Shown here in pieces: positions 12,851-62,669 of a DNA stretch of 64,000 bases. Position 1 is the stretch's first letter; each line of letters begins with the position of its first letter. The stretch comes from Harriotta raleighana (lineage: Eukaryota): the NCBI GenBank assembly GCA_050575255.1, contig JBNZDD010013689.1, forward strand, positions 6,264,162 to 6,328,161, written 5' to 3'. The notes beneath the pieces were generated by a model. It had not been told where the DNA came from. It saw only the letters and a list, made by a program, of their open reading frames with translations, and searched no databases. The translations under genes and the position numbers were made by a program.

Positions 12851-12863
12851 ATATATATATATT

Positions 12864-26673: not shown

Positions 26674-26686
26674 GATAATAACATAC

Positions 26687-39396: not shown

Positions 39397-39596
39397 CTAC
39401 ATTCAAAGTAAAATGTTAGAAATACCATGAACAGGTTAACTATTGCTTATTCAGGTGGTACAATTCACTGTGCATGATGACGTACATTTTGTTGGTGTTA
39501 ATATGACTAAAAGGTTAACACTAGCTGTAGGTTTGACATTGTGATTATTATTCAATAGTAGCACTTTGAAAATATCTGGTGCAAACTATACATTAC

Positions 39597-39662
39597 CGCT
39601 AAGCCAGAGTCACCCCTCTGCCCTTTGATTCCTCTCTGAGTGTTGTCAGGTCCTGATGTACC
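39597..39662 (-). CDS. COL6A3: Collagen helix exon (66 nt, conserved interruption, RGD)
   Basis: Encodes GTSGPDNTQRGIKGQRGDSGLA. Confidence 0.92.
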
Positions 39663-40077
39663 CTGTAGGATCACAGAGAATCACATTGATATTTTTTGTT
39701 TTCTAATGAATTGTGCTGTTTTCCTATAAAACCCACAATACTAGTACGAGTAGTTCTGAATGCTGCCGGTAGTGGCTTAAAGTGGTACTTTAAGAGGAAA
39801 AAAAACTCTTCCATCCGCCATTGTAGAAAGTTGCTTTGTGATTGTGCGCTTTGTTTATAAACTGTAATCAATATTTATTGCTTTATTGGTAAAAAAAAAC
39901 GTATTCATACAATATTCTGTTATTATTTATTCTATTATTAATATGATATGTTTAAAAAACAGTTACATTTTTGAGTTGGATTTTCGGCAACCGAATATCT
40001 TGCACATTCCACTGGTCAGGTCCTGAGGGTGCCAGATACACTGACTTTTACTATAGATTGAAATATGGACAAAATGC

Positions 40078-40325
40078 TAAAAAATGCAGATGCTGGAAGT
40101 CTCAAACAAAAATCGCTAAGAACACTCAGCAGATTTGTCAACATTTATAGAGAAAGGAAAGTGAGTCAACATTTCGGGTCCACGACCCCTTATCAAAACC
40201 CTCTGAGACTGAGACCCGTTCTGACGAAGGGTCCTAGACCCGGAATGTTGACATACTTTCCTTTCTCCATAGATGCTACTTGATCTGCTGAGTGTTCCTG
40301 GCAATTTCTGTTTTTGTTTCAGATT
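40078..40325. mobile_element. Inverted pair of Penelope-like terminal repeats
   Basis: Two roughly 110-nt arms in opposite orientation, each with a hammerhead-like core. Confidence 0.75.
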
Positions 40326-40359
40326 GAAATATGGATTTGAAGTTATATTAGCAGCTTAC

Positions 40360-40422
40360 CGGGTCACCTCGATGCCCCATTTCACCCCTTTCTCCTCTCC
40401 CACCTTTGGGTCCTTTCAAACC
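40360..40422 (-). CDS. COL6A3: Collagen helix exon (63 nt, RGD)
   Basis: Encodes GLKGPKGGRGERGEMGHRGDP. Confidence 0.92.
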
Positions 40423-40560
40423 CTGCACAGAAAGAAGCATAGATTAATGCACAGCTTGATTTGACTCTATTATTGCTAAGTGTGTATAATTTCAACCCTC
40501 TGAGCATTCATCGATCTCTATTTATCTGCCCCTAACTAGTTCAGATACTGTGAATGTGTA

Positions 40561-40842
40561 TAATAATAATAATCCTTGCATTTGATATAACGCTTTTCAT
40601 GTCTTCTGGACGTCTCAAAGCACTTCACAGAATATAATGCAAAGTGAATTGATTGTATACTTGTGGGCAAAACGCGGCAGCCAATTGTGCACCGCAGGAT
40701 CGGACAAACAGTCAAGGATTGAAGTGACCAAATTTTTTTTAGATGAGTGGAGTAAGGAAACTTGACCAATGTTTTGTCCTGCCTGGAATCAAACCCAGGT
40801 CTCTCACTTGTAAGGCGAGTGCTCTATCCGCTGAGCTACAGG
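40561..40842 (-). mobile_element. tRNA-derived SINE
   Basis: Reverse complement of the family at 22763. Confidence 0.85.
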
Positions 40843-40990
40843 TTTATCTTAACATCTGTCTGTATCTCTCTACAGCTATCTGTGCATGAAAACTGTGGTT
40901 GTATAAATACAGCATGTACCCCAAGCAATTCTAATACTGTACCATTTAGTGACAAATGGCCATATTATGGATAACACTATCTAGACTTAC

Positions 40991-41044
40991 CCGTTCACCC
41001 AGGTTACCCCTTTCTCCTGACGGGCCTGCTATTCCATATATTCC
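40991..41044 (-). CDS. COL6A3: Collagen helix exon (54 nt)
   Basis: Encodes GIYGIAGPSGERGNLGER. Confidence 0.92.
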
Positions 41045-41143
41045 CTGCAAAGGACATAACAGTGGCATTTACTGTAATGTTGCAGCAATCCAAGTAAATT
41101 ATTGACAAATGAAAGATGTGGAACGCAATGGTCTGTAACATAC

Positions 41144-41188
41144 CTGCTCGCCATTTATTCCATCAAGACCAAGTTCTCCATCTAGACC
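41144..41188 (-). CDS. COL6A3: Collagen helix exon (45 nt)
   Basis: Encodes GLDGELGLDGINGEQ. Confidence 0.92.
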
Positions 41189-41520
41189 CTACCAAAGAGA
41201 ATACAAACAGTAAATGAGTTCTAGCTCATCCCTCTGACAATGGAGATCAACTTCTGCTCTCTCTATAAGACTGAGTGATACTAAATGTTTAACTTGGAAT
41301 GAATCATTTTATTTCCTGAAAATCAAGACTGATATTTTATTCACTAAGTTTTACTGTCGGTGCCAACTATTGTCATTGTCATCACTAGACTTGAGTCCAC
41401 AGAACTGTTTCACTGAGCACTCTGCAGATATCACCTGAGGTCTTTGTAGCTCGTCTGCCTCAAAAGAAGCACATAGTCAAAAATAGCAACTGCTGCTGGC
41501 TCAGTATGCTGGGTACATAC

Positions 41521-41547
41521 CTTATCTCCTGGGTATCCACGGGTGCC
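41521..41547 (-). CDS. COL6A3: Collagen helix exon (27 nt)
   Basis: Encodes GTRGYPGDK. GT-AG flanked. Confidence 0.9.
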
Positions 41548-41644
41548 CTGTTTTTGAAAGAAAAGCAAACGTTATTCATGTGCAACTTTAAAATCTTCTT
41601 TTGGAATTTGTAGATAAGTCGTTGGAAGAGGTATTCAAGGTTAC

Positions 41645-41716
41645 CTTCATTCCACTTTGTCCTTGGCATCCCTGAAAGCCTTGAGTTCCATTTACTCCAG
41701 GCGGACCTCTCTCACC
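41645..41716 (-). CDS. COL6A3: Collagen helix exon with the conserved helix Cys (72 nt)
   Basis: Encodes [24 protein letters not shown]. Confidence 0.94.
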
Positions 41717-42030
41717 CTGTGAAAGACACCCAAGAATTTATGTTGCAAATTTGCTTCAGATGAAGTAGGCAGCCTCCTTGGCTCTTTTAACCTCATCGTT
41801 GCTTTTTTGAGAGAGTCGGCTGGGCGCCTGACACATAGGTAGGTTCCATAAGAGGGAGAAAGGTTTCATGGGAGCAGATGGCAAAACTCCACGACTGGGA
41901 GAAGGAATTAGTAATTCAGTTCGATCCAAATAATGTGAAAAGGGCTGCAGAACATTCAGATGTAACAGTATGCCAATTACATGTTAAATGAGAAAGCAGG
42001 GAGTATGCAGCAAAAGCAGATTCTACTTAC

Positions 42031-42084
42031 CGGTCCACCTTCATATCCTGGGTGACCACTGAATCCTTTAGGACCTGAGTTACC
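42031..42084 (-). CDS. COL6A3: Collagen helix exon (54 nt)
   Basis: Encodes GNSGPKGFSGHPGYEGGP. GT-AG flanked. Confidence 0.92.
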
Positions 42085-42417
42085 CTGGAGGAAGGACAAT
42101 GCAGGAAAATTGATAAATTTGTTCGGATAATGCTGCCTTGTTTTTAATATAGTCCCAGGTTTACAATATCGTGGGCATGCTTGCTTGTTGTCTTGCTTAC
42201 ATTACATTTTGAAACTTTGATCATCAGTAAATGCACTGCCCATGGAGGTGAGCACGTTTGATTCTTGGAAGGATGATAAATGTCCTGATCTTGACATTGT
42301 TAACTGATAATGCTCTCAGCAGCATACCAGTACATTGATGGCCAATAGGGAACCATTCCCTGAAACTGTTAGTGTGAGCCCAGTTCAATGGCCTTATTCA
42401 TGGATAATAAAGGTCAG

Positions 42418-42722
42418 TGGAATCCTGTAGCTGAGTGGTTAGAGCACTCGCCTTACAAGTGAGAGATCGGGGTTCAATTCCAGGCAGAGCAAAACCTTTG
42501 GAAAGTTTCCTTACCTCACACATCTAATAATTATCCAGTAACACAAAAAAAAGTTGTCATTTCAATCCATGACTGATTGTGGGAGACTCCTGTGCAAAAT
42601 TGGCTGTCATGTTTTGCTCACAAATATACAGTCAATTCACTTTTCAGTATATTCAGTGAACCGCTTCGAAACGTCTGGAAGACGTGAAAAGCGCTATAGC
42701 AAATGCAAGGATTATTATTATT
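42418..42722 (+). mobile_element. tRNA-derived SINE
   Basis: Head tgtagctgagtggttagagcactcgcc...ggttcaattcc and an (att)n tail. Confidence 0.85.
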
Positions 42723-43320
42723 GTGTATGTGTAAGCGAACAATAGCCAATTTGCAAACACCAATGTGGCGTGATTTTATCGAGGGGATTATTGGCCAGGA
42801 CATCAGAAGAAACTCCCTTCTCTTTTCCAATAGTGCCATGAGATTTTTAGTGTCCACCTGAATGGGTTCTCAGTTTAATGTCTTCTACAATACAGCATAC
42901 CCCAAGGAACACAGGAGTATCAGCAGAGACTGTGAGCTGCAAGCCCACAATTACAACCACAAAATTACATTTATTTAACACCATCCACTTCGGAAGGACT
43001 TCCCAAGGTGTTGCTTGGACATGAGCTGGGGTTCGAATTGGGTGGAGGGAAGGAGGGCTAAAGAATGGTGACCGATGGCACAGATAAGCAGGAGGGTCTT
43101 GAGGCAGGACTCAAAAGTGGCTACGGTGGGGGCAAGGTGGAGGGATTGCAGGATTGAGTTCCAAAGGTTGTGGGCAGAGTGGATGAAGGATTGCGGGAGA
43201 TTGTGGGGCGGGTAGAGCGAGGAACGTGCAGCAGAACAGAGCCCGCTGAGCGTAGGGAACGGACACTTAAAAAACAGTTGATAACATGTAAAACACAAAC
43301 TGCTTCATCAATTTATTTAC

Positions 43321-43413
43321 CTTCGAGCCTCGTAGTCCCTGAGGACCTTTGTCACCAGGCTGACCAAGGCACTTACAAGGAACATCACAGCACACTCTCT
43401 CCGCAATGTTATC
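43321..43413 (-). CDS. COL6A3: Cys-rich junction and start of triple helix (93 nt)
   Basis: Encodes [31 protein letters not shown]. Confidence 0.93.
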
Positions 43414-43515
43414 CTGTCAAGACAAACCCATACAGCAGTTTGGGCAATACATTGTTAAGGTGACCACACTTTAAAATTCATTTTGAAACCACTCCAAATA
43501 ATAATTTCATCTTAC

Positions 43516-43661
43516 AAGTTCTTCCGCCAACTCGTACTCTAAATCCAGCTGGCTGATTGACAGTGGCCTTCTGTACCGAAACCCTCGGCCGAACTCCAGC
43601 AAGGCAGCTTCTTCAAACTGTGCTACATTCTCCATAGCAACCAGCAGCAATGAGTGGATAC
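43516..43661 (-). CDS. COL6A3: VWA N1 exon c (146 nt)
   Basis: Encodes GIHSLLLV...LEFGRGFRYRRPL...YELAEEL. GT-AG flanked. Confidence 0.93.
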
Positions 43662-43989
43662 CTGTTGGGAGAGGATAGAGGCAGCACATCAGCAACTTAA
43701 TTGTGATTCTCTTCTCCCGCCCCACCACCACCCCGTCACTTTCCTCTCTGCAAACTGGTCAGGATTGGTTTTGATGCCCTGTACATCAGAGCAGCCTGTT
43801 GACACACCTGCTCGCATGTGTACAAAGGCCACTTAGGTCATGTACTGGAGGGCAACATGTGCAACGAGGATGCCAGATCACGAGCAGAGAGGCGTATGCA
43901 AATGAGGAGAGGATTAGAAAATAATTGGACACACTAAAATTTCTAGAAAAACAACTACACAATGGGAGACAGATGGAACATTTTTATAC

Positions 43990-44068
43990 CTGCTCTTCGT
44001 AATGTCTCGGCTTCTGTCTTCAACAAATTAATGTCTTCATCAAGCCCATCCGTGAAATGAATTATGAC
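43990..44068 (-). CDS. COL6A3: VWA N1 exon b (79 nt)
   Basis: Encodes VIIHFTDGLDEDINLLKTEAETLRRA. GT-AG flanked, phase 0-1. Confidence 0.92.
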
Positions 44069-45340
44069 CTATAAAAGGAGGAAATGAGATAAGAGCAAAA
44101 ACTACAGCAGCATCAATTATATTTAGTCTTCCACAAAATATGCAGTCAATCCACTTTACAGTATATCCTGTGAAGCACATTTGAGACATCTCGACAACAT
44201 GATACAGTAATGTGTTCTATGCAATTGCGAGGATTATTATTTAACATCAGGAGGGCATCTCAAAGCGCTTTTCACACAGAAGGCGTGAAAAGCGCTACAT
44301 CAAATGCAAGGATTATTATTATATAAATGAAAATCGTCTTGTATTCAATAATAATTATTGCATTTGATATAGCTTAAACGTCAAAGTGCTTCGACATCAA
44401 AGGATTTACTATAAAGCATTTTATAAACCCACAACATTAAGTCCTGTGTGTTTTGTAGATAATGCAGCAGCCAATTTGCACACAGCAATGTCCCAACAAC
44501 AACAACTTCGATTTATATAGTGCCCTCCAAGCCAGACGGCACCTCAGAGCGCTTAAAAGAAGCAGGGAGTAAATAATCAACTTTATTTGGGGGATTATTA
44601 ACAACGACACTCCATTCTCTTTTTGAATAATTCCATGAGATCTTCAACAACAACTTGAACAGGCAGATGGGACCTTGGTTTAATGTCTCACCTGACAGTA
44701 CCTCCAACAATACCGTGATCCCCTAGAATTCAAAGTCCCGACATAGGGCTTGAACCCACAATCTTGTGACTCATAAGCGAGAGTGTCATCAACTGAGTGA
44801 ATCTGAACCATTTAAAGAGGAATGAAAATAAACTGTACTTTGATGAAATCATTCAAAGATGGGATTTGATTAGCGAGGCTCTGTTCTTCGGCCCTTGGTT
44901 GGAGCTCAATCAATTGCCTTTGGGAGGTGGGAGCAACTAATTAGAGTTAGTTTTTTTCCTTGAATTGACCTTGCCAATTCTCTTTGTTTGGTTCTTTCTG
45001 TTTTTCACTTTGTGTGGTTGGGAAGATCCCATTTAAGAGGATAAGGTGAGAAAGTAAATAGGGGAGTTATTCCATGAGTGGAATCAATGGGACACAAACA
45101 CGCCACAAACATTTCCACAGAATAAATTTTACAGACATAGCTGTGTAAAGGCAGGTTTAAAATGCACTCTGTGGAAATGTAGAATAGTTACAGAAACCCT
45201 GATTTATATCCCAATATCCCAACAATTATTCTTGTTTTCTTTACACATGGTTTGTACCTACATTGTTATTACATGGTGCGTAACAACCACCGCCACCCCG
45301 CTCCACACACATATGTGAAATGATGTACTGAAAGACTTAC

Positions 45341-45687
45341 CTTCACACTCGCTGAGCTGCTATCTCTAAAAGTTTGTAGGTAAGCATTTAAAGTCCTTCT
45401 ATCAAGGACATATGGAGCATCATCTCGCAGAGTTTGGAAATTGCTCATTATTTCTGGTGTGTAGTCTTCAAAGTTGAAGAATTTCCGCTGGCCTCCACGA
45501 GTGTAAGCCATGATGCCGACTCTCACTGATGGCACCTTCGAGCCAGAGCAGCTTAATGTACGCAACTGGGAGATTCTCTGCATAATGTCTCCCACCTTGG
45601 ACTCCAAAGCCCTCAGAGGTACAAAGACGGTGTCTCCACGACCACCACTGCTGACATCTAAGCCAAGCAGAATGTCAATGTTGCAGT
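45341..45687 (-). CDS. COL6A3: VWA N1 exon a (347 nt)
   Basis: Acceptor ctccccag|ACTGC and donor AAG|gtaagt. Encodes CNIDILLGLD...SVK. Confidence 0.92.
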
Positions 45688-46309
45688 CTGGGGAGGAAAC
45701 AGAGAGAAAGGCCTTAGCACCTAAATGCAACAACTATAAAGTAAAGAAACTTAATCATGATTCTTAGGTTCGATAAAGCCCTTTTTATGCGGGAGAACAT
45801 CAAAGTGCATGAGATACTGTAAAGTGGAGTGGATACATATGCATAGGTAAACTCAGCAGCCTATTTTGCACAGGATGCACAAACAGCCATGGAGTGAATT
45901 ATAGTAAAACCTTTTTTATCCATGACCCGATCAACCGGATTGCTCTAACCCCTCCCGGGGCAATTCCCTATTCCAGGCACTTATTAAACTTATGCACTTG
46001 TTTTTTTTCCCCCAATCGGTAAAAAATGCTGTTTTACTGATCTTTTTACCGACTGTGCTGGAATGTTTTATTGGTAAGTATCTATATGATATTCTGTTAC
46101 TATTTAGTCTATTATTAACATGGTATGTTTTAAAGTAAGTTAATTTTTTATGTTGGGTTTTCAGCAACTTGTCCCCCGTTTATCCATCAGAGTCAATTGG
46201 TCGACCCCCCATCAAGCACTTATCTTAAGACAGAATATCATTAGTTCTTAATTTATATCCATCCATTATATCCATCCATTACTATTTCAGCAATTTCTCA
46301 CATTCTTAC

Positions 46310-46918
46310 CTTTCACTTTATCAGGTACCTTGGGGCACAGTTCACCTGAAATGCTGTCAGCCAAGGTCAGCAAGATGTCCTCAGTCAGGCCAGACAGGCC
46401 ACTGTAGGTGGTGACCCTGAATGCTGCCGCCTGCTCACTTGCTATATGGCTCATTTCATCCACATCGGCATTTGGTAACGCCACGGTGAAGAGCTTGATC
46501 TGTGAGTCTCTCAGCTCTCTGGCAGCCAACAAGGCATCGTCAGTCGACTTCCCGCCTGTCAAGAGGATAACAATCTGTGGCACACCCTCGTCGACCCTGC
46601 TACCTGCCGGCCGGATTAGTTGTCTGATTTTAATCTGCCTCAGGGCTTCCGCAGTGTTCAGTACTCTGCCCCCTTTATACTGGATATTCTGGATAGCATT
46701 GATGACATTCTCTCTGTCTGTGAAGGAATTGAGGAAGAATTCGTGCGACACGTCTGAGCTATACTGGACCACACCAACTCGGAACGATCCATCGTCTGTA
46801 TAGCTCGCATCCACAAAGCTCCTGATGAACTCGATCAAAACAGGGAAGTTCGTCCTTCCAACATTCATGGAACCATCCAAAGCAAACACAATGTCGGCCT
46901 TTTTCTGACACAGGGTTG
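46310..46918 (-). CDS. COL6A3: VWA N2 exon (609 nt)
   Basis: Acceptor ttcttcacag|CAACC and donor AAAG|gtaaga. Encodes KKADIVFALDGS...ELCP. Confidence 0.92.
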
Positions 46919-47574
46919 CTGTGAAGAATGTATAAAAAGTGGTGAGTTTGTTTAATAGGAGTGAATGATACTTGCGATCGATTCATAAGATTGACAGTTA
47001 ATAATGGCTTTCAAGGGCAGTAGCAAACACAGTAGCCAGTTTGCAAATAGGAATCGTACAAAGTCATTAGATGAATGCTGAATTTTATCTGGCGATTACT
47101 GGCCAAAAGATCTTCCAGGTGCACCTGAATAGGCAAACAGAATTTCAATTAACATTGCATCAGAGGATGACAACTCTGACAATGAAACACTTCCCAACAC
47201 TGTACTGGATATTAAACGCGACGTCCTGCTGTGAGGCTTCATCCCACAACCACTGGTGAAAATGCTAACAAATGACCTGAGCTAAATTTATTGTGTGTTT
47301 GGCGTGAAAAATTACTAATAATTGACCGTACATTCTTTGGCTGGTCAGCCAGGTGTGTAACACATGGAAATCAATCACTGTTCTTAATCTCTAAAACAAG
47401 TTACTGAGTACTCCACATATGTAAAATTATTTGTTAGTTTGGTATGCAGTTCCCTAGAGCAGTGGTTCGTAACCTCAGGTCCCGACCAAATCAGGGTCGT
47501 GGGGGTGTTCAGTAGGGTCGCAAAGGATTATCAGAATTTTGTTTTGTTGCTTTTTTTAATGCTGAAAATGCTTT

Positions 47575-49630
47575 TTGGAAAAAAGGAGGGGGAGGTGGCA
47601 ATATTAATTAAAGACACGGTTACACCTTGGAAGTGGACAAGGTGCTAGAGGGCCTAAAAACACAATCTATCTGATTATAGTTAAGGAATAAAAATGGTAC
47701 TGTTATGCTGTTAGGGGTATACTAATAGAGTACCAAAAAGTGGTAAGGAGATAGAGGAGCAAGCAGATTTCAGAAAGATGCAAAGCCAATAGAGTAGTGA
47801 TAATGGGGTCTTCAATTATCCCAACACAGACAAGCAAAATAATAATAATCCTTACAATTGTATAGCGTTTTCCACATCTTATCGATGTCTCAAAGCACTT
47901 CACAGAACATCCCAGAGTAGGGACCAGAGCAGGGGAGGGGTCGGTGTGGGGAGAAGAAAAGAGGGAAGTAAAGGGGGAAAAGAGGTAGTGACCAGATTAG
48001 TGGGTAGGGGTCATGGTAGGGAAAGAGAGTAGCAAAATAACAGCATAAAAGACAAGGAGGGGAAAGGATTCCTGAAATGTGTACAAGCAACTTTCTTGAT
48101 CAGTAGGTTTCCAGCCCAACAAGGAAGGAAGCAGTGCTGGATCTAGTTCTGGGGAATGAAATGGGGCAAGTGGAGCAGATATCAGTAGGAGACCATCTGG
48201 GCAATAGTAAGCATAGCATCATTAGATTCAAAGTACTTATGGAATAACAATCAAATGTGAAGAAACTCAACTGGAAGAGGGTTAATTTCAGTGAGTTAAA
48301 AAGGGACCTAGCCAAGGTGGATAGAAAGATTGGCAGGTAAAATAGCTAAAGAGGAATGGAAAGCTTTCAAGGAGGAGATAGTTCAGGGATAAAAATAAAT
48401 ACATTCCCACAAAGTGAAAAAGTATGGCATCCAAACTTTACTGGATGACTAAGGAAATTGGGACTAAAATAAAACAGAAAAAGGAGGCCCAACATTCAGA
48501 AGACAATCAAATTGAATATAGGAAGTGCATATGAGAAATGAAAAAGTAAATAGGAGGGGCAAAACGATTATACGAAAAAAGATTAGTGGGTAGCATTAAA
48601 GGGAATCCTAAGATATTTTACAAGCATCTCAAGAATAAAAAGTTAATCAAAGGTAGGGTGGGGCAAATTAGGGACAAAGGCGGAAATCTTGTGGAAGCTG
48701 ATGCACTGAATAAGTACTTTGCATCCCGTTTCATATAAAAAAAGGATGCAGCCAATGCCACAATATCGGAGGAGATGATAGAGTAATTGGATAGGATAAG
48801 TATAAACAGAGAGGAAGTACTAAAAAGTGCTAAAAAGGAAATACTAATGACGGTGCTCAAGGCAGATAAGTCACCTGGTCCAGACGGGACACTTCCTTGC
48901 TAAGGAAAGTACAGATGCAAATAGCAGAGCCTCCGACCAAAATCTTTCAATCTTCCTTGGACACAGGGATGGTGCCAGAGGACTGGAAGGTTGCTAATGT
49001 TACTCCCCAGTATAAAAAGGGACAGAAGAACAAACCTGGGAACTACAGGTCAGTCATCTTAATGTCAGTAGTAGTGGGGAAACTTCTAGAGACTATAATC
49101 CAGGGCAAAATAAATTTTCACTTGGGAAAATATAGGTTAATAAAGGACAGCCAGCATGGATTTGTTAAAGGCAAATCTTGACTAACAAACCCGATAAGAG
49201 TTTTCTGATGAGGTAACGGAGAGAGTGGATGAAGATAGTGCAGCTGATGCAGGTTATATGGACTTTCAAAACGCATTTGACAAAGTGCTATTTAAGAGAC
49301 TTGTAAGGAAAATAGAAGCCTATAGTATTAAAGGGACAGTGGCAGCATGGGTCCAGAACTGGCTGGGAGGCAGAAAGCAGAGAGTTGTGGTGAACGGTTG
49401 TTTTTCTGACTGGAGTGGCGTCCCCCAAGGATCAATATTAGGTCCAATCTCTTTTTAGTATATACATATATATAAGTGATCTGGACTTGGGTACAGGGAG
49501 TACAATTTTCAAGTTTGCAGATGATATTAGGTTAGGAAAAATGGTAAATAATGAGGAGGCTAGTAGCAGACTGCCAGAGGACATAGACAGAATGGTAAAA
49601 TGGGTAGACACATGTCAGATGAAGTTTATT
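47575..49630 (+). mobile_element. CR1 LINE ORF2 remnant (endonuclease-RT)
   Basis: Motifs VPEDWKVANVTP, PGNYR, SQHGFVKGKS, YMDFQNAFDKV, GVPQGSILGP and KFADD, with many frameshifts. Confidence 0.92.
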
Positions 49631-50803
49631 ATGAAGACATGCGATATAGCACTTTTCATGTTATTTGGACATCTCAAAGCTCTTCATAGAATATACTGTA
49701 AAGTGAATTGACTGAATATTTGTAGGCAAAACACGGCAGCCATTTTACACACAGCAGTGTCCCACAAACAGTTGTGAATTGCATGACCAAATTATTATTG
49801 TGCTTTTTTTTGGAGGGATTATTATTAGGTGTGTGGGGTAAGGAAATTTGTCCAAGGTTTTGCTCTGCCGGGAAACACAAACCTGAACTCTAGATCATGT
49901 CTTCCAGCAGCTGCCAGCCAGAGTTTTGCTCACCAACTGTTTGATGGCATCTAGCCTTCAGCATGTGGAAGAATTGCTTAAATTTTAGCGTGTGAAATGC
50001 CAGCCATCTTGATGTTATACAAATGTAATTTTGTTGTTGTTAGAGAATCCCAGACTTACTAACATTAACTGCTTAATCCAGGTCCCGTTGTGAGGGGCTT
50101 TGGCAAGGAGCCACACGTGCCAACCATGATAGCAACTCAGCTTCCATGGTCTCAAGTGACATCTCAGTACAGATTAGAGCACACTACAAATGTATGCCTT
50201 ACAGCTTGTTTGTACATCCATTAACTTACAACTTTTCCAACTGCTGAAGTTGAAAACCTATTGGAAATTGCCAAATATAATATTGATGGGTTTTCCCTGA
50301 ACCTTATGACATTCTGTGATCTCATATAAAGCCCTGATTTGTCCTGCACACTCCTCGTGAGAATGAAATCCAGCCTGTACCTTCCTGATTACACTGCAGG
50401 CCTCGCAATGCATCCATACACATGCCATGACCACCTGAAGAACCACCTTAATAGCCAATGAAAGTAGTGACATGCCTTATTAGGTCACTTCTCACTCGGA
50501 TCACACTTCTTGTGTATATCTACTGCACAAGCACTGGGTCACTGATGGTTTGATACAATCCTATTATCTAGACCTATAAGGGTAGATACCAAGGGAAACA
50601 GTCAAACAAAATAGAAAATTTGTCCATTGATCTATAAGAATCCTGTCATTTTATGTTCCCTCCCACACACCACAGCAGCTCTGAAATACTTACGTTCCAT
50701 TGACCATCCATGCACACACAGAATTTTTTATAAACTTTCTCCCCCCATACATAAGAGCCACAACCCATTAATTAAAGGATAAGAGGCAGCAGCAGGTACA
50801 GAC

Positions 50804-51409
50804 CTTCAGTTGTGGGGGGTTCGGGTGTCTCATAACTCACTGGATCAACCATAAGCAGCTGGTTGCGAAGTCCCTCCTGCATGGTGGGGAGCTGCTGGAA
50901 GGTATCGAGAATGTACACGCTATAGGGCAGGGACCCAATAATTTTCAACTCATCACTGTCAGGATTTTTTGCGCCAACAACAAAAGTGTGAATTCCTGAA
51001 TTTTTTAGCAAATCTGAGGAAGCTCGGATGTCATCTTGAGACTTCCCGCTGATAATTAATATCAGATACTGTGGCACGCCCTCATCCTTCCTGCTTCCAG
51101 CTGTTGAGATGAAGTGGTTTTGGATAACAAAGTCCACGGCTGCCCCAATGTTGAGCCTCAAGCCCCCTACTGGTCTGATTCGCCGAATGGCCCCCTGCAG
51201 GGAATCCTTCCTCAGATGCTCTTTAAGGAGGATCTCGGTTTTCGGCCTGTCACTGAACTGAGCCAGGCCAATTCGGATCTTGTTGGCTTTGATGTCCAGA
51301 TTGTCAATTAGGTACATGATGAAATCACGGATGTGAGCAAAATCTCTAGAATTCACTTTGCTGGATCCGTCAATCAGGAACACTACGTCTTTCCTATCAA
51401 CGTCGGGCT
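50804..51409 (-). CDS. COL6A3: VWA N3 exon (606 nt)
   Basis: Acceptor gttttccag|AGCCC and donor GAAG|gtctgt. The DFAHIRDF motif is N3-like. Confidence 0.9.
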
Positions 51410-51509
51410 CTGGAAAACATTAGGTCAGTATGTTACAAGAGATAATGGAAAAGTTACACAAGAAGAATAGGAGGAATACTATTGAAGTAAAGCTCTAGAA
51501 GCATTGATC

Positions 51510-53238: not shown

Positions 53239-53829
53239 CTGTTGTTTGGTGGATTCTGTTTATTTCAGTTGCTTTCATGTTCAATAAAGGCCTCAACAGA
53301 CGTTGCTCAAGTGTTCCAACATCCCGCAGATCATCCACCTTGAAGATGTAATTGGGAGACAGTGAAATCTGTCGTAGCTCCTCATCGTCTGTATCCCTGG
53401 ATCCAATAGTGAAAGGTGCCACACCAGCATTTTTCAGTGCCAGCGCTGCCTGACCAACATCATCGGAAGACTTGCCAGCAGTTATCAGGATCAGAAACTG
53501 TGGCACGTCTTCCTCGATTCTACTGCCGGCAGGCTTGGTAAATAGGTTAGCTCTGACGAAAGCTAGTGCTTTTCCAGTGTTGGCATTTGGTCCTCCTAAA
53601 ACTGCAAGGTTTCTCACTGCACCCAGGACCTCAGCCTTGGTGGAGTGAGTGTTTAAGAGGAAGTTCACCTTGGGATCATTACTGTACTGTACCACTGAGA
53701 TACGCACTTTCTTCAATCCAACATCCAAGCCTTCAACAAGTTTAATAATGAAGCGTTGGACTACAGGGAAAACACGTCTGAATTTGTTTGATCCATCGAT
53801 GAGGAATACAATGTCTCTCTTGATGGTAT
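53239..53829 (-). CDS. COL6A3: VWA N4-like exon E, more diverged (591 nt)
   Basis: Acceptor tctacatccag|ATACC and donor ACAG|gtaaag. Encodes TIKRDIVFLIDGS...GVAPF...ISLSPNYIF. Confidence 0.93.
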
Positions 53830-54607
53830 CTGGATGTAGAAGAGAACCACATGTTTACCATTTCACCAAGAAAAAATAACCCTAACTCCCTCAAAAAAGT
53901 ATTCTATACTATTCAATGAAATGTAGCTTGGTATAGCAATTTGAACATTGGACTGACTTTGTAGGGACCGAAAGGATTTCTGCCCATTGTGGTTATATTA
54001 TTTTTATTCTTCACAAGCTGGAAGAACAACCCTGTTGGGGGGGAGTTAACTGCATTGAAGTGGTTCCCGGTGTGGAGGGCTCCATATCAGTGCTAGTTGT
54101 TATTGTTGTTATTGTAAGGGAGTCTTCTTGGAGCTTAACTGGTTTCAAGGTGACATCTTTGACAATGGAATGTCAGAATTGAGCCCAATCTTTGTGGTGT
54201 TCACATTCATAATATATATTTTTAAAACAACAAAAATCATGAAGTGGGAGATGAATATACAGTATTTCCCACATCAGCTTGTATGTAAAATACTGCTTGA
54301 TAAGTTCACATTATTGTCTTGCATTTTTCTAATGTTAAATCTCAATCAATAAGCTACAGGACTCCACAAGTCTGGTTCCTGGTCTGCAGCACTCCAACTT
54401 GCCTCATTGGCAGGACATAAAGGACACATTAGTCACTGATCCCTAAGGTCAAGGGGTCTCTAAAGGAAAATACAAATGAATCTTCTCTATTTAGGCTTCA
54501 CAAAATTCCTGCATTTTACTCTGAGCAATCCATGTATGAATAGGAACATGAGAAGGGACTCAATGGTAGGATTCTACACAATACTTAACCTTCATCTCAA
54601 TCCTTAC

Positions 54608-55204
54608 CTTCATCTATCTTTCTCCGGATCTCAGTTAGCTGAACTCTAGTCAGTGTTGACAGAGGAGATTGGAGACGTTGCTCAAGAGTTCCGACATTCC
54701 GCAGATCATCCACCCTGAAGATGTAGTCAGGGGACAATGAAATTAGTTGCAGCTCTTCACTGTCCGCGTCCCTGGATCCGATAGCGAAAGGTGCCACACC
54801 AGTCTGTTTCAGTGCTAGTGCTGCCCGCCCAACATCATCAGTGGACTTGCCAGCAGTGAGCAGGATCAGAAACTGGGGCACGCCTTCCTGGATTCTGCTG
54901 CCAGCATTAGTTATGAATACCCTCCTCGTGACATAGCCCAGCGCTGCCCCAGTGTTTGCCTGCCTTCCTCCTTTAATTCTGAGTCTTCTTATTGCATTCA
55001 TCACATCCTGTTTGTTTGAGTGGCTGTTTAACAGGAAATCGGGTCTGGGATCATCACTGTATTGCACTACACTGACTCTCACTTTGTCACTTCCAACATC
55101 AAGTTTGTCGACCACTCTAGAAATGAAGCTCTGGACTGAAGGGAAAGAGGATCTGACTTTGTCTGATCCATCAATCAGGAACACGACATCTCTCTTAGCA
55201 GCAC
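54608..55204 (-). CDS. COL6A3: VWA N4-like repeat exon D (597 nt)
   Basis: Acceptor tgtgttccag|GTGCTGCT and donor GAAG|gtaagg. Open frame. Confidence 0.93.
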
Positions 55205-55756
55205 CTGGAACACAAAGGGAAATGCATTCTTGTTCAGCGGTTATTCTGTCTGAAACACAAGTATCTTGTACAGTATCAAGATTAGATCAATAAGTTGAAG
55301 AAATATTCATATCAAGAAATTTCTGTCATTTTTCAAGAGTCCAAATTTTATAGATTCTTCACACAACAGTAAGTTCACCCCAAAATTGGACAATAGTCTT
55401 GCACTAATCCACCAAACCAAGTAAATGCTGCATGCAGGATTTCTTGATGTCATTCCCTTTCAACCATGGAAACTAAATGAGTGACAGGTAGGGTGATGCC
55501 AACTGGACACAAGGCCGGAAGCTTGCCAAATAGCACTCTCAAAAGATATGCAGTTTTACCTGAAAATTTCCAGCAGGACCTAAATACGCAGTCTAGGGCT
55601 ACATGTGGTACGTGGGCCAGGAGTGACTCACGGGCCTTTCAAGAAGCAAACCTCTCCCCGACTCTGAATATTCACCCGAGTCTAGGCAAGTCCATATTCC
55701 ATCAGTAATGTGTTTTCAGTTTTTTCTTGATTAAATATTTCTTGGCCTGAATATTT

Positions 55757-56082
55757 CTTGGCCTGCTCCATATTCCCCGCCCGAACCACTGTACCATCGG
55801 AGGCCGAGCTTTCAGCCTCTCTGCCCCGATGCTCTGGAATTCCATCCCGCAGTCCCTTCAACTCGCTTCTTCCCTCTCCTCCTTCAAGGCCAGTCTCAAG
55901 ACCTTCCTATTTGACCGTGCCTTCTGCTCCCCATCCTAATTCTCCTGCCTCTCCTATACACCTTGTCCCTATCCCCAACATCCTCCCACAAGTTGCTCGG
56001 GTCCCGACCTAACTGTTCAGAGCCTTGGGATGTCCTCCCAGCATGAAAAGTGCTCTATAAATGTAATTTTGTTGTTGCTGTT
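55757..56082 (+). mobile_element. L2 3' fragment inserted after the exon duplication
   Basis: L2 tail; absent from the paralogous intron at about 57885. Confidence 0.8.
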
Positions 56083-56200
56083 CTTCATTCATCATATAGA
56101 TCTTGTACCCAGGCAGAATTGTCAACTGCTTTGTGCGTTCTCCTAGCATTCAAGGCACTATCTTAAGAGAAATGTTTATTGTAAATTACAGTATATTCTA

Positions 56201-56306
56201 AGAATCGAGTAACCAGTTTTATTTCCGGATATTATGGCCAGGACACCAGAGGAAACTCTGGTGTCCTGGCCATAATATCCAGAAATAAAACTGGTTACTC
56301 GATTCT
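56201..56306. repeat. 51-bp inverted repeat with a 4-nt loop
   Basis: 56201-56251 is the reverse complement of 56256-56306 with one mismatch. Confidence 0.95.
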
Positions 56307-56484
56307 CTTTTCAATAATGCCAAGGAATCTCTACAGCCCATCGGAAAATGCAGATGAGTCTTCAGTATTTAGGCTTCCCAATATTCCTATATTTTACTCT
56401 GAGCAATACATGTAGGAATATGAATATAGGAAGGGACTCAATAATAGGATACAACACAATACTTAACAGAAAGAGCCTCCTTAC

Positions 56485-57081
56485 CTTCATCTATCCTTCT
56501 CCGGATCTCAGTTAGCTGAACTCTAGTCAGTGTTGACAGAGGAGATTGGAGGCGTTGCTCAAGAGTTCCGACATTCCGCAGATCATCCACCCTGAAGATG
56601 TAGTCAGGAGACAATGAAATTAGTTGCAGCTCTTCACTGTCCGCGTCCCTGGATCCGATAGCGAAAGGTGCCACACCAGTCTGTTTCAGTGCTAGTGCTG
56701 CCCGCCCAACATCATCAGTGGACTTGCCAGCAGTGAGCAGGATCAGAAACTGGGGCACGCCTTCCTGGATTCTGCTGCCAGCATTAGTTGTGAACACGCT
56801 CCTCGTGACATAGCCCAGCGCTGCCCCAGTGTTTGCCTGCCTTCCTCCTTTTATTCTGAGTCTTCTTATTGCATCCATCACATCCTGTTTGTTTGAGTGG
56901 CTGTTTAACAGGAAATCGGGTCTGGGATCATCACTGTATTGCACTACACTGACTCTCACTTTGTCACTTCCAACATCAAGTTTGTCGACCACTCTAGAAA
57001 TGAAGCTCTGGACTGAAGGGAAAGAGGATCTGACTTTGTCTGATCCATCAATCAGGAACACGACATCTCTCTTAGCAGCAC
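56485..57081 (-). CDS. COL6A3: VWA N4-like repeat exon C (597 nt)
   Basis: Acceptor tgtgttccag|GTGCTGCT and donor GAAG|gtaagg. Open frame. Confidence 0.93.
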
Positions 57082-57593
57082 CTGGAACACAAAGGGAAAT
57101 GGATTCTTGTTCAGCGGTTATTCTGTCTAAAACACAAGTGCCTTGTACAGTATCAAGATTAGATGAATCAGTTGAAAGTATGTTTACATCAAAATAATTT
57201 CTGTCACTTTTCAATAGTCAGAATTTTATAGATTCTCCAAACAACAGTAAGTTCACCCAAAAATTGGACAATAGTCTGCATTCATCCACCAAACCGACTA
57301 AATACTGCCTGCAAGATTTCTTGCCTTCATTCCCTTTTAACCATGGAAACTAAAACAGTGATATGTAGTATAATGCCAACTGGATACAAGGCTGGAAACA
57401 TGCCAGACAGCACTCTGAAAAGATATGCAGTTTTAGCTGTTAATTTCCAGAATAATCTAAATACATAGTAGAGGGCAACATGTGGCCAGAATGTGGCTGT
57501 GGGCCAGGAGTGACTCACGGGGTTTCAAGAAGCTCACCCATCCCCCACTCTGAATATTCACTCGTGTCTAAACAAATCCGTATTCCATCAGTA

Positions 57594-57850
57594 CAGGTAT
57601 CCCCCAGTTTAAGACGCCTCTATTTACATTGTTTCGATTAAAATAATAAAGTTGTTTAACACCTTTTTAATGATATACAATATTTGGTTTTGTTTTAACA
57701 ACAAAAAACATGTGGCGCATCTGTTTTGCGCAAGCGCAGTACATAGTGTATTTCATGGGACTGCATGGGAAACTACGTTTTGATTTAAGACGTTTCGATT
57801 TACGTAACATTTTCAGGAACGCAACCCTGTCGTAAATCATGGGATATCTG
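57594..57850. mobile_element. Tigger-like MITE (257 bp)
   Basis: Structure TA|caggtatccc...gggatatctg|TA. The empty site is visible in the paralogous intron at about 55705. Confidence 0.88.
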
Positions 57851-58236
57851 TATTGTGTTTTCAGTTTTTTCTTGATTGAATATTTCTTGATTAATTACAT
57901 AGATCTGGTACCTAGGCAGAATTGTCAAATGCTTTGTGCGTCCACTAGCATTCAAGGCATTATGTTAGTGAAATGTTTATTGTAAATTGCAGTATATTCC
58001 AAAAAGCGAGTAACCAATTTAGTTTGGGGGTATTATGGCCAGGACATCAGGGAAAACTCTTTTCAATAATGCCAAGGAATCTCTACAGCCCATCGGAAAA
58101 TGCAAACGAGTCCTCAGTATTTAAGCTTCCCAATATTCCTACATTTTATTCTGAACAGTCCATGTAGGAATAGGGATATAGGAAGAGAATCAATAGTAAG
58201 ATTCCACATAATACTTCACAGAAAGAGCCTCCTTAC

Positions 58237-58833
58237 CTGCAAGTATAGTTCTCCGGATCTCAGTTAGCTGAACTCTAGTCAGTGTTGACAGAGGAGATTG
58301 GAGGCGTTGCTCAAGAGTTCCGACATTCCGCAGATCATCCACCCTGAAGATGTAGTCAGGAGACAATGAAATTAGTTGCAGCTCTTCACTGTCCGCGTCC
58401 CTGGATCCGATAGCGAAAGGTGCCACACCAGTCTGTTTCAGTGCTAGTGCTGCCCGCCCAACATCATCGGTGGACTTGCCAGCAGTGAGCAGGATCAGAA
58501 ACTGGGGCACGCCTTCCTGGATTCTGCTGCCAGCATTAGTTGTGAACACGCTCCTTGTGACATAGCCCAGCGCTGCCCCAGTGTTTGCCTGCCTTCCTCC
58601 TTTAATTCTGAGTCTTCTTATTGCATCCATCACATCCTGTTTGTTTGAGTGGCTGTTTAATAGGAAATCGGGTCTGGGATCATCACTGTACTGCACTACA
58701 CAGACTCTCACTTTGTCACGTCCAATGTCAAGATTGTCGACTACTCTAGAAATGAAGCTCTGGACTGAAGGGAAAGAGGATCTGATTTTCTCTGAGCCAT
58801 CAACTAGGAACACAATATCTCTTTTAGCAGCAC
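58237..58833 (-). CDS. COL6A3: VWA N4-like repeat exon B (597 nt)
   Basis: Acceptor gttttccag|GTGCTGCT and donor GCAG|gtaagg. Open frame, near-identical to exons A, C and D. Confidence 0.93.
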
Positions 58834-59539
58834 CTGGAAAACAAAGGAAAATTAATTTCTGTTAGCATTATCTCTCTGAAACCTATGTGCCTTGAACACT
58901 ATCAAGACAATATTTATTCTAAAATAATGTTTGCCTCAAAGGAATTCCTGTCACTTTTCAAGAGTTAAAAGTATATAGATTCACCAACTCTTCTGATGTT
59001 CAGGCAAAAAGCAGATGGAATGTACGTTGCTCCATGAGATCCAGCATGTTTATTGTAGCAAATCAGAAATAGCAACCTTTATTGAACTTTTTTGTAATCC
59101 CATTATGAAATAGATCTGAAAGCAATAAGCTAAATAGAGCATACTGGTATCAGCAACTCAAAAAGAAAACCAAGTGGAATCTGCTTCAGCCAGTCGCATT
59201 GAAGCAGGGAGGTTTGTCTGATTTCCCTGGCAAAGGCCAGTAACCAAATTTCTTCCTTTTCTTTGCTTTTTCCCGACAAGTCCTCTACTGAATCTCTGTT
59301 CCCTCCCATTGGCGTTCCCATTGAATAGGAAGGGGATAAATTAGCGGCGGTTCTGGAAGTTGTCAATCACCTAGGAGCCGCGAATTGGTCCTCTCCTCAT
59401 CCACTGATACAATTACTGCCCTCCCTACAGCCATTTGTGAATGGTTGGAGTCCGCAGTCAATCACAAGGTGTCTTTTCCCGTCCCTATCCTGGAGCAAAT
59501 CTTGGTTGAATGGAGCAGCTCATGACACAAAGTGTGTAT

Positions 59540-59690
59540 GAAACAAAAACAGTAATCGCTGGGAACACTCAGGGGTTCAGGCATTGACTCACTTTTCCTT
59601 TGCCGTTGATGCTGCTTGACCCGCTAAGTGTTCCCAGTGATTGCTGTTTTTGTTTCAGATTTCCAGTGCCTGCAGTGTTTTGCGTATTTG
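59540..59690. mobile_element. Inverted Penelope-like terminal repeat remnant
   Basis: aaacaaaaacagtaatcgctgggaacactcag pairs with ctaagtgttcccagtgattgctgtttttgttt. Confidence 0.65.
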
Positions 59691-59999
59691 CATGAGTGAG
59701 TATATTTAGCGGTGTTCAATGCAATATTTTGCTCTACTTTACTGGATTTTCATGCAAATTAACAGTGATATTTCAAACACCTAAGCATACAAATGAATTG
59801 GGTAAATGTGTTTCATCTGATTTGTCTGGTGACCAGGGTTAACAGATGTCCAGCTAAACCGGATTACACTGTACAATACATTAGAATATACAGCATAGAA
59901 ACAGGCCATTTGGCCCAACTGATCTCTGCCAGAATTTATGCTCCACATGAGCCTCCTCCTGCCCTTCCTAAACTAAGCCTACAAGCATAATTTTCTAAA

Positions 60000-60155
60000 G
60001 AAAAAACGCAAAGTACTGCAGATGCTGGAAATCTGAAACATAAATAGAAATCCCTAGGAACACTCAGCAGTCAGTCAGTATCTATGGAGAAACGAAAAGT
60101 GAGTGAACGTTTTGGATCCATGACCCTTCGTCAGAACTGACAGAACTCGTCAGAA
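60000..60155 (-). mobile_element. Penelope-like terminal repeat with mutated hammerhead core
   Basis: Reads CTGACGA-A-GGGTC-ATG-GATCC-AAAACGTT; the G of GAAA is lost. Confidence 0.7.
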
Positions 60156-60384
60156 TAGAAGCATAACAATCCATTGCTTTTGCCTTCTGGTACTTGTCTA
60201 GCTTCCCCTTAATTACATTTATGCTATTTGCATCAACAACTCCTTGTGGTAGCAAACAGCTGTTCTAAACTTCAGGATTTGCCAGTCATTGGTAAAAAAA
60301 AGTAATACTGTATGTGTTTTGAAATTTTGCTGGTTTTAGGGAGTTTCTGGCTTTCGGAATGTCATATTATTGACATTCTACTGT

Positions 60385-60815
60385 ACAATAAGCCTTGTAT
60401 TTGATATAGCAATTTGTCAGTTCGTTGAGATGTCTCAAAGCACTTTGCAGAACATTCTGTAAATTGTAGTGACTGTATATCTTCGGGTGAAGCATGACAG
60501 CCAGTAATACACACAGTAATGTTGCACAAAGAGCCATGGAGTGAATGACCATTTTTATTTGGGGGATTGTCGGCCAGGACACTGGGAGAAACTCAGTTCT
60601 TTTCCAAATAGCATCATGGGATCTTAAAAACCCACACAAACAGGCAGATGGGACCTTAATTTAATGTCTCATCTGATGGACGGCACCGCCAACAATACAG
60701 CATATCCCCAGCACTGCCTAGGAATGTCATCTTAGACAATGTGATTCCAAGTCCCAACATGAGGATTGAACCTACAATCTTCTGACTAAGAGGTGAGAAT
60801 GCAACCACTACACCA
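60385..60815 (-). mobile_element. Deu-domain-type SINE
   Basis: tRNA-like head, gatgagacattaaa...ggtcccatctgcctg core and L2-like tail. Similar cores at about 4470, 7560, 20190, 44660 and 52780. Confidence 0.6.
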
Positions 60816-61214
60816 TTACACATGTTAAATGGCATAGTACTACATTTTATAGAAGCTCTGTGAAACGCTTTGAAACGTTTCAATATGATCAGGCACTGTA
60901 CAATATGCACAGATTATTAATGCTGAAACTATTTATGCCGCCATCCTTCTAAAGAGCAGTTTGTAATCTTCAATGTCTGGTTTACTATCAAAATGAAAAG
61001 CCCAGTCTTAACAATGAGATGACTAGGTCAGCTTATGATGTATGACAAGGTCAGCTTCTGAAGCGTGTTCAATGAGTGTAACATGTCAGGGCTGCGCATG
61101 TACAAATTACAACAGGCACAGCATGATATACATTGCAATAATGTGTTACTGATTTTTAAGTTTCTTGATATTTCTAAATTTGATACCTAGTCTCCCCCCA
61201 CATCCAAGCAATGA

Positions 61215-61850
61215 ATCGCTCCGCCTTTCCCCATCTCCGCAACATTGCCTGACTCCGTCACTACCTCACAACCAAAGCCACTGAAACCCTCATCCATGCC
61301 TTCATTACATCCCAGCTCGACTATGCAATGCCCTGCTTATTGGCCTTCCCAATTCCTCCCTCCACAGGCTGTAGATAATCCAGAACTCTGCGGCCCATGT
61401 CTTCTACCGTTCCAAACTCCATGACCTCCCAGCTCACCCATCCTCACCTGGCTCCCCATCACCCAGAGGATCCAATTCAAGATCCTGGTCCTCACATTCA
61501 AAGCACTTCACAATCTCGCCCCACCCTACATCCGTGACCTTCTAACACTTTACCAACCTGCTCGCCCCATCTGCTCAGCAGGTTCTGGCCTACTCCACGT
61601 CCCTGAACCCATCCACCCCACTATTGGTTGCCGAGCCTTTAGCCACTCTGCCCCCAACTTCTGGAACTCCATCATCCAGTTCCTCCGCCTCGGCCCTCCC
61701 TGGCCTCCTTCATGTCCTGCCTCAAAACTCTCCTTTTCGATGGTCCCACTGGCAACTCTTAAACTCCCACTTCCCTCCCACTCCGTCCCCAGCTCGGGTC
61801 TGACACAGTGACTGTCTAGCACCTTGGGATGCCTTCCTGATTTGAATCAA
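61215..61850 (+). mobile_element. L2 3' fragment
   Basis: ETLIHAFITSQLDY and LTWLPITQRIQFKILVL-type remnants. Confidence 0.85.
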
Positions 61851-62072
61851 TCAATCAAAACTACATTTATAAAGCGCCTTTCACATTGGGAGGATGTCCC
61901 AAGGCGCTGAACAGTCAAGTAGTGATCAGAGCAGGAGGGGAGAGGTCGGGGGAAGGAAAGTAGGAAAATTGATTGTATATTTGTGGGCGATTTTTGAAAG
62001 GCACTATACAAGTGTAATTTTGTTTTTTTTGTGGTCTCCATGTAGTTTCTTCAACATAAAGAGCCTCCTTAC

Positions 62073-62669
62073 CTTCAAGAATAGTTCTCCGTATCTCGAC
62101 TACCTGATCTCTAGTCAGTGTTGACAGAGGAGATTCAAGACGTTGCTCAAGAGTTCCGACATTCCGCAGATCATCCACCGTGAAGATGTAGTCAGGAGAC
62201 AATGAAATTAGTTGCAGCTCTTCATTGTCTGCGTCCCTGGATCCGATAGCGAAAGGTGCCACACCAGTCTGTTTCAATGCTAGTGCTGCCCGCCCAACAT
62301 CATCGGTGGACTTGCCAGCAGTGAGCAGGATCAGAAACTGGGGCACGCCTTCCTGGATTCTGCTGCCAGCATTAGTTATGAACACCCTCCTCGTGACATA
62401 GCCCAATGCTGCCCCAGTGTTTGCCTGCCTTCCTCCTTTAACTCTGAGTCTTCTTATTGCATCCATCACATCCTGTTTGTTTGAGTGGCTGTTTAACAGG
62501 AAATCAGGTCTGGGATCATCACTGTACTGCACTACACTGACTCTCACTTTGTCACTTCCAATGTCAAGTTTGTCGACCATTCTAGAAATAAAGCTTTGGA
62601 TTGAAGGGAAAGATGATCTAGCTTTCTCTGATCCATCAACCAGGAATACGATATCTCTCTTAGCAGCAC
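62073..62669 (-). CDS. COL6A3: VWA N4-like repeat exon A (597 nt, phase 1-1)
   Basis: Acceptor tgtgttccag|GTGCTGCT and donor GAAG|gtaagg. Encodes AAKRDIVFLVDGS...GVAPF...ISLSPDYIF. Confidence 0.93.

What the first reader, a model, noticed from the sequence alone, without database searches (positions are those of the whole stretch)
54608..62669. Mosaic exon copies suggest ongoing gene conversion (concerted evolution)
Seen: exons C and D differ at only about 8 of 597 nt by manual count, including silent sites, while adjacent duplicated introns are visibly more diverged and carry copy-specific insertions. Variants are shared in incompatible patterns. A+D have RRVFITN versus B+C RSVFTTN. A+B have IVFLVDGSEK versus C+D VVFLIDGSDK. 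B+C+D share LQSPLSTLTRVQLTEI. No single duplication tree fits all of these. Inference: conversion or unequal crossover homogenises the exon cores.
Basis: partly seen in the sequence, partly recalled or inferred. Interest (0 to 1): 0.7.

Follow-up and report, generated by a model that had tools for sequence, protein, structure and literature searches.

The report
Self-homogenising collagen VI exon array
In a chimaera-like fish, one exon of the collagen VI alpha-3 gene sits in four near-identical tandem copies while the introns between them have drifted apart, likely because gene conversion keeps copying sequence between the exons; sharks and rays carry a similar self-similar array at the same place in the gene.

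Summary
Exons A-D (597 nt each, minus strand) encode N4-like vWA domains of COL6A3. C and D differ at 8 of 597 nt (4 of about 148 synonymous sites) against 88 of 617 in their homologous introns (p=2e-5). B and C share an identical 220-nt core between divergent ends (Sawyer-type p=0.0015). Only 3 of 55 variable sites break a single tree, so the mosaic argument alone is weak. Other species carry the case. Contigs of a related species show four copies, two with recognisably matching intron flanks, yet 11 exon sites uniform in A-D carry another letter in its multi-copy contigs. Callorhinchus milii has six copies (97-100% alike, 88-89% to the window) and 11 residues fixed between the species. All 15 shark and ray orthologues examined (score-picked) have 6-10 copies; inner copies group by species, edge copies by position. 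Likely mechanism: DNA-level non-allelic gene conversion, with occasional unequal crossover changing copy number. 'Ongoing' is only partly shown: the small A+D patch may be polymorphism or assembly error. A known process; I found no paper reporting it for COL6A3.

The parts
62073..62669 (-). Exon A: first N4-like vWA copy, most divergent of the four (25 private sites)
   Evidence: Pfam VWA for sister copies
58834..62072 (-). Intron A-B; only its last ~150 nt align with introns B-C and C-D (70-77%)
58237..58833 (-). Exon B: divergent 5' 173 nt and 3' tip, core 174-585 nearly identical to C (220 nt identical)
57082..58236 (-). Intron B-C, homologous to intron C-D (about 85% outside insertions); copy-specific insertion about 57594-57845
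56485..57081 (-). Exon C: 8 nt from D, 24 from B
55205..56484 (-). Intron C-D; copy-specific insertion about 55745-56080
54608..55204 (-). Exon D; carries the short A-like patch at exon positions 284-292
53830..54607 (-). Intron D-E; first ~140 nt homologous to the flanks downstream of B and C, then unique
53239..53829 (-). Exon E: older edge copy that escaped homogenisation; orthologous to the last C. milii copy (87% aa)
12534..51419 (-). Rest of the COL6A3 gene: N3, N2, N1, collagen exons, C1, C2 and C-terminal exons
   Evidence: tblastn with C. milii XP_042192432; tree

Best explanation
Four tandem copies of an N4-like vWA exon of COL6A3 are far more alike than their introns and are likely kept alike by repeated DNA-level non-allelic gene conversion, with unequal crossover likely changing copy number now and then. 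Inferred steps: protein constraint keeps the 597-nt exons similar enough to pair out of register (copies lie 1.75-7.5 kb apart); break repair copies tracts of roughly 10-400 nt from one exon to another; diverged introns with insertions stop tracts from running on, so cores are homogenised, exon ends and introns are not, and the edge copy E has escaped altogether. The predicted protein result is a lengthened alpha-3(VI) N-terminal arm of near-uniform domains.
For: Shown: C-D synonymous 4 of ~148 vs introns 88 of 617, p=2e-5; four-fold sites 3 of 98, p=0.0009; B-C core four-fold 2 of 73 vs introns 78 of 501, p=0.002. Run test B-C p=0.0015/0.0004, B-D 0.039/0.002, C-D 0.044, none for pairs with A. 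Organism B contigs: four donor flanks, loose ends that match the window's A and B flanks by eye, core contigs at about 3 times single-copy depth (105 and 115 vs 33-45 in X5; 69 and 73 vs 24-28 in X6) differing from exon C at 9 of 216 and 4 of 220 nt; 147 of 186 31-mers of the first contig overlap such a difference, so the differences are multi-copy. 11 of the 31 exon rows shown are uniform in A-D yet different there. C. milii XP_042192432: six copies 97-100% alike, 88-89% to the window, 11 residues fixed between species and uniform within both; AU test rejects Window_A+Cmilii_1 (p=0.001) and Window_D+Cmilii_6 (p far below 0.001), while E+Cmilii_8 has 100/100 support. [quoted passage not shown] Tracts may cross the acceptor: C-D differ at 2 of the first 50 intron nt, then 4-12 per 50; one organism-B contig at two-copy depth runs 64 nt into the intron (X6 record 24).
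Against: Only 3 of 55 sites are tree-incompatible. Reads of individual S8 carry the A+D allele at 54913 in 2 of 18 reads (9 expected) and D's private allele at 54918 in 0 of 16 (reads not fully independent), and S1 and S8 show a C-like acceptor flank with three letters that no assembled copy has: the assembly's fine mosaic may be partly wrong. Logan contigs drop minority paths (no separate A core in X2), and only 40 of 141 and 40 of 95 difference rows were shown. The window A-D clade has only 88/87 support. The splice-crossing contig was seen in X6, not in X5. Exon ends encode linker residues that are probably less constrained, which adds to the end-versus-core contrast.
Confidence: 0.8

Rival explanations
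1. Assembly artefact: collapsed or cross-polished repeats made the cores identical and mis-joined exon ends.
For: The assembly is fragmented with N gaps. Other individuals differ from it at D's 284-292 patch and at C's acceptor flank. Exon depth is about 5.4 times single-copy expectation (22.9 vs 4.2), so a collapsed extra copy is possible.
Against: Multi-copy k-mer depth of an identical core in an independent individual and in two other species; the same within-species identity in C. milii and 15 elasmobranch annotations from separate assemblies. An artefact could explain the A+D patch (I put that at about one in three) but not the homogenisation.
Confidence: 0.06
2. RNA-templated conversion: a reverse-transcribed spliced message repairs the exons, which would explain the exon-limited pattern.
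For: Identity falls quickly outside the exons; C and D differ at once beyond the donor.
Against: B-C and A-B identity breaks down inside the exon, well before the splice sites (bins), and raised identity extends 25-60 nt into the acceptor intron (that evidence is thin).
Confidence: 0.06
3. Birth-and-death turnover: the copies are young whole-unit duplications made separately in each lineage by unequal crossover, with no conversion.
For: Copy number varies: 4 here and in organism B, about 6 in organism C by depth, 6 in C. milii, 6-10 N4-like domains in sharks and rays. At protein level species-specific clades cannot tell turnover from conversion.
Against: Whole-unit duplication copies introns too, but paralogous introns differ by 12-23%, more than orthologous flanks differ between species (about 5-8%: 7 of 89, 6 of 114, 4 of 85, 6 of 91, stretches partly exonic), and A- and B-type flanks exist in organism B.
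Confidence: 0.05
4. Purifying selection alone, including on synonymous sites, keeps the exons alike.
For: dN is below dS in all six pairs; exons are constrained.
Against: The same synonymous sites differ between species (7 synonymous differences over 436 nt of contig, roughly 6% of synonymous sites), more than C and D differ within the genome (2.7%). Selection cannot put the same new synonymous or amino-acid change into all copies of one species only.
Confidence: 0.03

Closest known systems
Vertebrate COL6A3 N-terminal vWA domains N10-N1 (bovine chain PDB 9HAN_C, mouse N5 PDB 4IGI; PMC3919171, passages read)
   Same: One vWA domain per symmetric exon, beads-on-a-string arrangement; best match is the sixth scored domain of 9HAN_C, which I read as N4 (209.5 bits vs 177.4 for the one before); tree clade with tetrapod N4.
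   Different: Mammalian and bird domains are single-copy and under 50% alike; here five related copies fill the slot between N6 and N3, four of them 91-98% alike.
[quoted passage not shown]
   Same: High repeat purity, copy-number change, repeats grouping by species.
   Different: That paper calls the process rare and lineage-specific and has no passage on vWA domains in my word search; here it is seen in every cartilaginous fish examined, and introns separate the units so conversion can be told from whole-unit duplication.
Gene conversion among clustered protocadherin variable exons (PMC3966226 and PMC2764143, passages read)
   Same: Tandem exons with part of the exon homogenised and the rest diverged.
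   Different: Protocadherin exons are alternative and give diversity; these exons look constitutive (joined in annotated proteins, not tested with RNA). PMC2764143 reports only limited conversion in elephant shark protocadherins, so this locus is a contrast within chimaeras.
Conversion between duplicated exon 26 copies of newt Nav1.4 (bioRxiv 10.1101/2021.03.25.437018, passages read)
   Same: Old intragenic exon duplicates share lineage-specific substitutions through non-allelic conversion.
   Different: Two alternative terminal exons and a known adaptive target there; four to ten internal exons and no known selective driver here.

Membership tests
COL6A3 (collagen VI alpha-3) | N-terminal vWA array, short collagen helix, C1-C2 vWA and C-terminal domains in one gene | tested here: met
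   tblastn of C. milii XP_042192432 covers the window in order at about 65-95% identity; Pfam VWA in 7 of 8 frames scanned
COL6A3 N4 domain | Groups with tetrapod N4 and lies before N3 | tested here: met
   SH-aLRT 96 in a quick tree; best PDB domain score. The array fills both the N5 and N4 positions, so an N5 origin of some copies is not excluded
Concerted evolution | Copies more alike within a species than between species | tested here: met
   11 residues fixed between window and C. milii
Concerted evolution | The array is older than the species split | tested here: met
   A- and B-type intron flanks in organism B (compared by eye); edge copy E orthologous to C. milii; paralogous intron divergence above orthologous divergence
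Non-allelic gene conversion | Local tracts of lowered divergence incl. synonymous sites, flanking markers not exchanged | tested here: met
Non-allelic gene conversion | Sites incompatible with one tree beyond homoplasy | tested here: inconclusive
   3 of 55 sites, p 0.0003-0.035, but two of them are not supported at expected share in another individual
Ongoing conversion | Polymorphism shared between copies in phased haplotypes | tested here: inconclusive
   Short reads of one other individual differ from the assembly but cannot be assigned to copies
Non-allelic gene conversion | Non-reciprocal transfer seen directly in meioses or pedigrees | not testable with these tools
   needs sperm typing or families

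The most novel reading that the evidence does not exclude
The N5/N4 slot of COL6A3 is an ancient, copy-number-variable vWA array of jawed fishes that has been re-homogenised by conversion within each lineage for hundreds of millions of years (N4-like in cartilaginous fishes, N5-like in ray-finned fishes, also expanded in coelacanth), acts as an adjustable spacer on the collagen VI microfibril, and was cut back to single N5 and N4 domains in most tetrapods, with a fresh N4 triplication in a shrew.
Probability: 0.4. Interest if true: 0.68.

Novelty: new member of a known kind. Interest (0 to 1): 0.52.

Why it matters
It is an unusually clean vertebrate case in which introns date the duplications while exons are reset, so tract length, the identity needed for conversion and the edge effect can be measured across many fish genomes. 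It also suggests that the textbook ten-domain alpha-3(VI) N-terminus is not general: fish chains of 3,900-7,400 residues with near-identical vWA arrays are common in the search results. This bears on fish models of collagen VI myopathy and warns that short-read assembly and variant calling in these exons are unreliable.

Tried and rejected
Two homologue searches were limited to 2000 residues and returned mostly teleost arrays and a vWA-only shark paralogue; true shark orthologues came only. The self-BLAST returned nothing because only the diagonal was reported; replaced by domain cutting. No RNA holder listed, so splicing was not examined. No remnant of the divergent C. milii seventh domain in intron D-E (best tblastn E 0.17). 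The max-chi-square scan mostly picked up the divergent exon tips and was not used as evidence. The R-to-T difference at 57030 between two organism-B runs lies near a contig end and was not counted. The careful tree did not finish; the quick tree is reported and five species were left out of it. Ten paper searches found no report of vWA array expansion or concerted evolution in fish COL6A3; the library lacks most subscription papers, PubMed 26362255 was not held, and supplements (e.g. Fig. S1 of PMC6934817, domain schemes) were not seen, so prior mention is not excluded. Three look-ups of earlier scan findings returned nothing.
Full report
What the region is. The minus strand of the window holds most of a COL6A3 gene: tblastn with the Callorhinchus milii protein XP_042192432 maps N-terminal vWA, collagen and C-terminal exons in order, and the gene continues upstream in L001-L002. 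Single-copy domains are 79-92% identical to C. milii, so the source is inferred to be a chimaera other than C. milii. The finding covers four 597-nt phase 1-1 exons, A 62073-62669, B 58237-58833, C 56485-57081 and D 54608-55204, followed by an older copy E at 53239-53829. All five group with tetrapod N4 in a quick tree of 200 domains (SH-aLRT 96) and score best on the domain I read as N4 in PDB 9HAN_C. They fill the space between N6 and N3. A DNA search of the own genome found no further close copy (6 matches: the five here and a 67% paralogue).

Check of the observation. C and D differ at 8 nt, as stated; the other pairs at 24-40. Of 55 variable sites 41 are private, 10 are AB|CD, 1 is three-state, 3 are AD|BC, none AC|BD (reversed labels there). 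The mosaic claim is therefore true but thin.

Within-genome evidence. Homologous introns differ by 14-15% for C-D and 12-23% for B-C, with copy-specific insertions. C-D synonymous differences are 4 of about 148 sites against 88 of 617 intron sites (p=2e-5); four-fold sites 3 of 98 (p=0.0009). B and C differ at 10 of 57 third positions in the first 173 nt but 3 of 137 in positions 174-585, with 220 nt identical; four-fold sites in that core 2 of 73 against 78 of 501 intron sites (p=0.002; core limits were chosen after seeing the data). A Sawyer-type permutation over polymorphic sites gives p=0.0015 (longest run) and 0.0004 (sum of squares) for B-C, 0.039 and 0.002 for B-D, about 0.044 for C-D and nothing for the three pairs with A. 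A's flanks align with the others for only 20-50 nt, yet its dS to them is about 0.15.

Other individuals. Organism A contigs match the window at 0-1 differences in unique parts, so it is taken as the same species. In X2 a 299-nt core contig has no difference to C at depth 14.6 against 4.4-6.2 for single-copy contigs, about three copies. Raw reads of S8 give 22.9-fold exon depth against 4.2 expected for one copy, compatible with four to six copies. Against the assembly's details: the A+D allele at 54913 is in 2 of 18 reads, D's private allele at 54918 in 0 of 16, and a C-like acceptor flank with three unassembled letters is in an S1 contig and in 12 of 26 S8 reads at 55213. This is polymorphic conversion or local assembly error; short reads cannot decide. 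Only 40 of 141 difference rows were shown.

Other species, DNA. Laid on exon C, organism B (two runs, two studies) shows four single-copy donor flanks; loose ends match the window's A downstream flank (both runs not equally listed; seen in X5 and X8), A upstream flank (X5) and B upstream flank (X5, X6), compared by eye. Its core contigs have about three times single-copy depth and differ from C at 9 of 216 and 4 of 220 nt. Since 147 of 186 31-mers of the first overlap a difference, these letters must be in several copies. Of the 31 exon rows shown (40 of 95 rows in all), 11 are uniform in A-D but different in those contigs; 5 of the 11 match E's letter, and four of the affected residues match C. 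milii (columns 56, 87, 141, 154), so those changes are inferred to have arisen in the window's lineage and spread to all four copies. Organism C reaches 510 depth against 55-84 single-copy, about six copies. Logan contigs drop minority paths, so copy A's state in these species is unknown.

Other species, protein. C. milii XP_042192432 has six copies at 97-100% adjacent identity, 88-89% to C, then a divergent domain absent here, then an E orthologue at 87%; 11 columns are fixed between species and uniform within both. AU tests reject pairing first with first (p=0.001) and last with last (p far below 0.001); E pairs with its orthologue at 100/100; the window clade itself has 88/87. All 15 elasmobranch orthologues that I took from the 120 hits have 6-10 N4-like domains with best adjacent identity 95-100%; the hits were ranked by summed score, which favours arrays, and some 100% pairs may be false duplications. 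In the quick tree of 111 rows inner copies mostly group by species and edge copies across species. Coelacanth has a similar array. In the first search 54 of 120 proteins, by my count and with many isoforms per species, had an internal pair at 95% or more; ray-finned arrays fall in the N5 clade and a shrew protein has three N4 copies. The splits involved are roughly 170 and 420 million years old (recalled, not from a call).

Mechanism. Shown: exon cores are more alike than introns and than orthologues, in patches, in an array older than the species compared. Inferred: out-of-register pairing of constrained exons and non-reciprocal copying during break repair; intron divergence and insertions limit tracts; unequal crossover alters copy number; edge copies escape. 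DNA-level rather than RNA-templated conversion is preferred because tracts end inside exons and may run into the acceptor intron, but that evidence is thin. Selection alone fails because the same synonymous sites differ between species by roughly 6%. The protein consequence, a longer bead-on-a-string N-terminal arm, is extrapolated from PMC3919171 (passages), which also notes that N1-N5 matter for suprastructure; no function was tested.

Comparison and novelty. Concerted evolution of domain repeats (PMC5100051, passages), of protocadherin exons (PMC3966226, PMC2764143, passages) and of duplicated Nav1.4 exons (bioRxiv 10.1101/2021.03.25.437018, passages) is known. PMC6934817 (passages) discusses collagen VI gene duplications in fish but the passages found do not mention domain arrays; its supplements were not seen. 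Ten searches found no report for COL6A3. Verdict: a real, new member of a known kind; interest 0.52, higher if the clade-wide array is confirmed as undescribed.

Noticed in passing
G000:C13708:45700-67500; L003:434-7671: A second, COL6A3-like locus with many vWA exons, matching a vWA-only C. milii protein at about 80%; four units of ~2.3 kb are duplicated with their introns (92-95% overall), exons 1-3% apart and introns 3-14% apart. Shark homologues are vWA-only proteins of 1,400-6,300 aa, often annotated col6a3.
   Followed up: partly
window 53830-54607: A divergent vWA domain present between the array and E in C. milii and grouping with domains of some sharks and rays has no trace here; likely lost in this lineage.
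   Followed up: partly
window 57592-57852: Copy-specific insertion in intron B-C with short terminal inverted repeats flanked by TA, resembling a MITE (seen by eye; family label recalled).
   Followed up: no
window ~56205-56310: Near-perfect palindrome with arms of about 50 nt in intron C-D; intron B-C lacks 49 nt of it.
   Followed up: no
P0080 (Sorex fumeus XP_055964275): Three N4 copies at 95-97% identity in a shrew: an independent expansion of the same domain, or an assembly artefact.
   Followed up: partly
proteins: Teleost col6a3 products of up to about 7,400 aa; the shorter ones examined have two- or three-domain higher-order vWA repeats up to 100% identical within a species.
   Followed up: partly
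window 57090-57101 (laid as 55213-55224): Other individuals carry three letters in a C-like acceptor flank that no assembled copy has: a common allele, a fifth copy, or a polishing error in the assembly.
   Followed up: partly
L002:2300-4430: An assembly gap of about 2.1 kb cuts an upstream vWA exon of the same gene.
   Followed up: no
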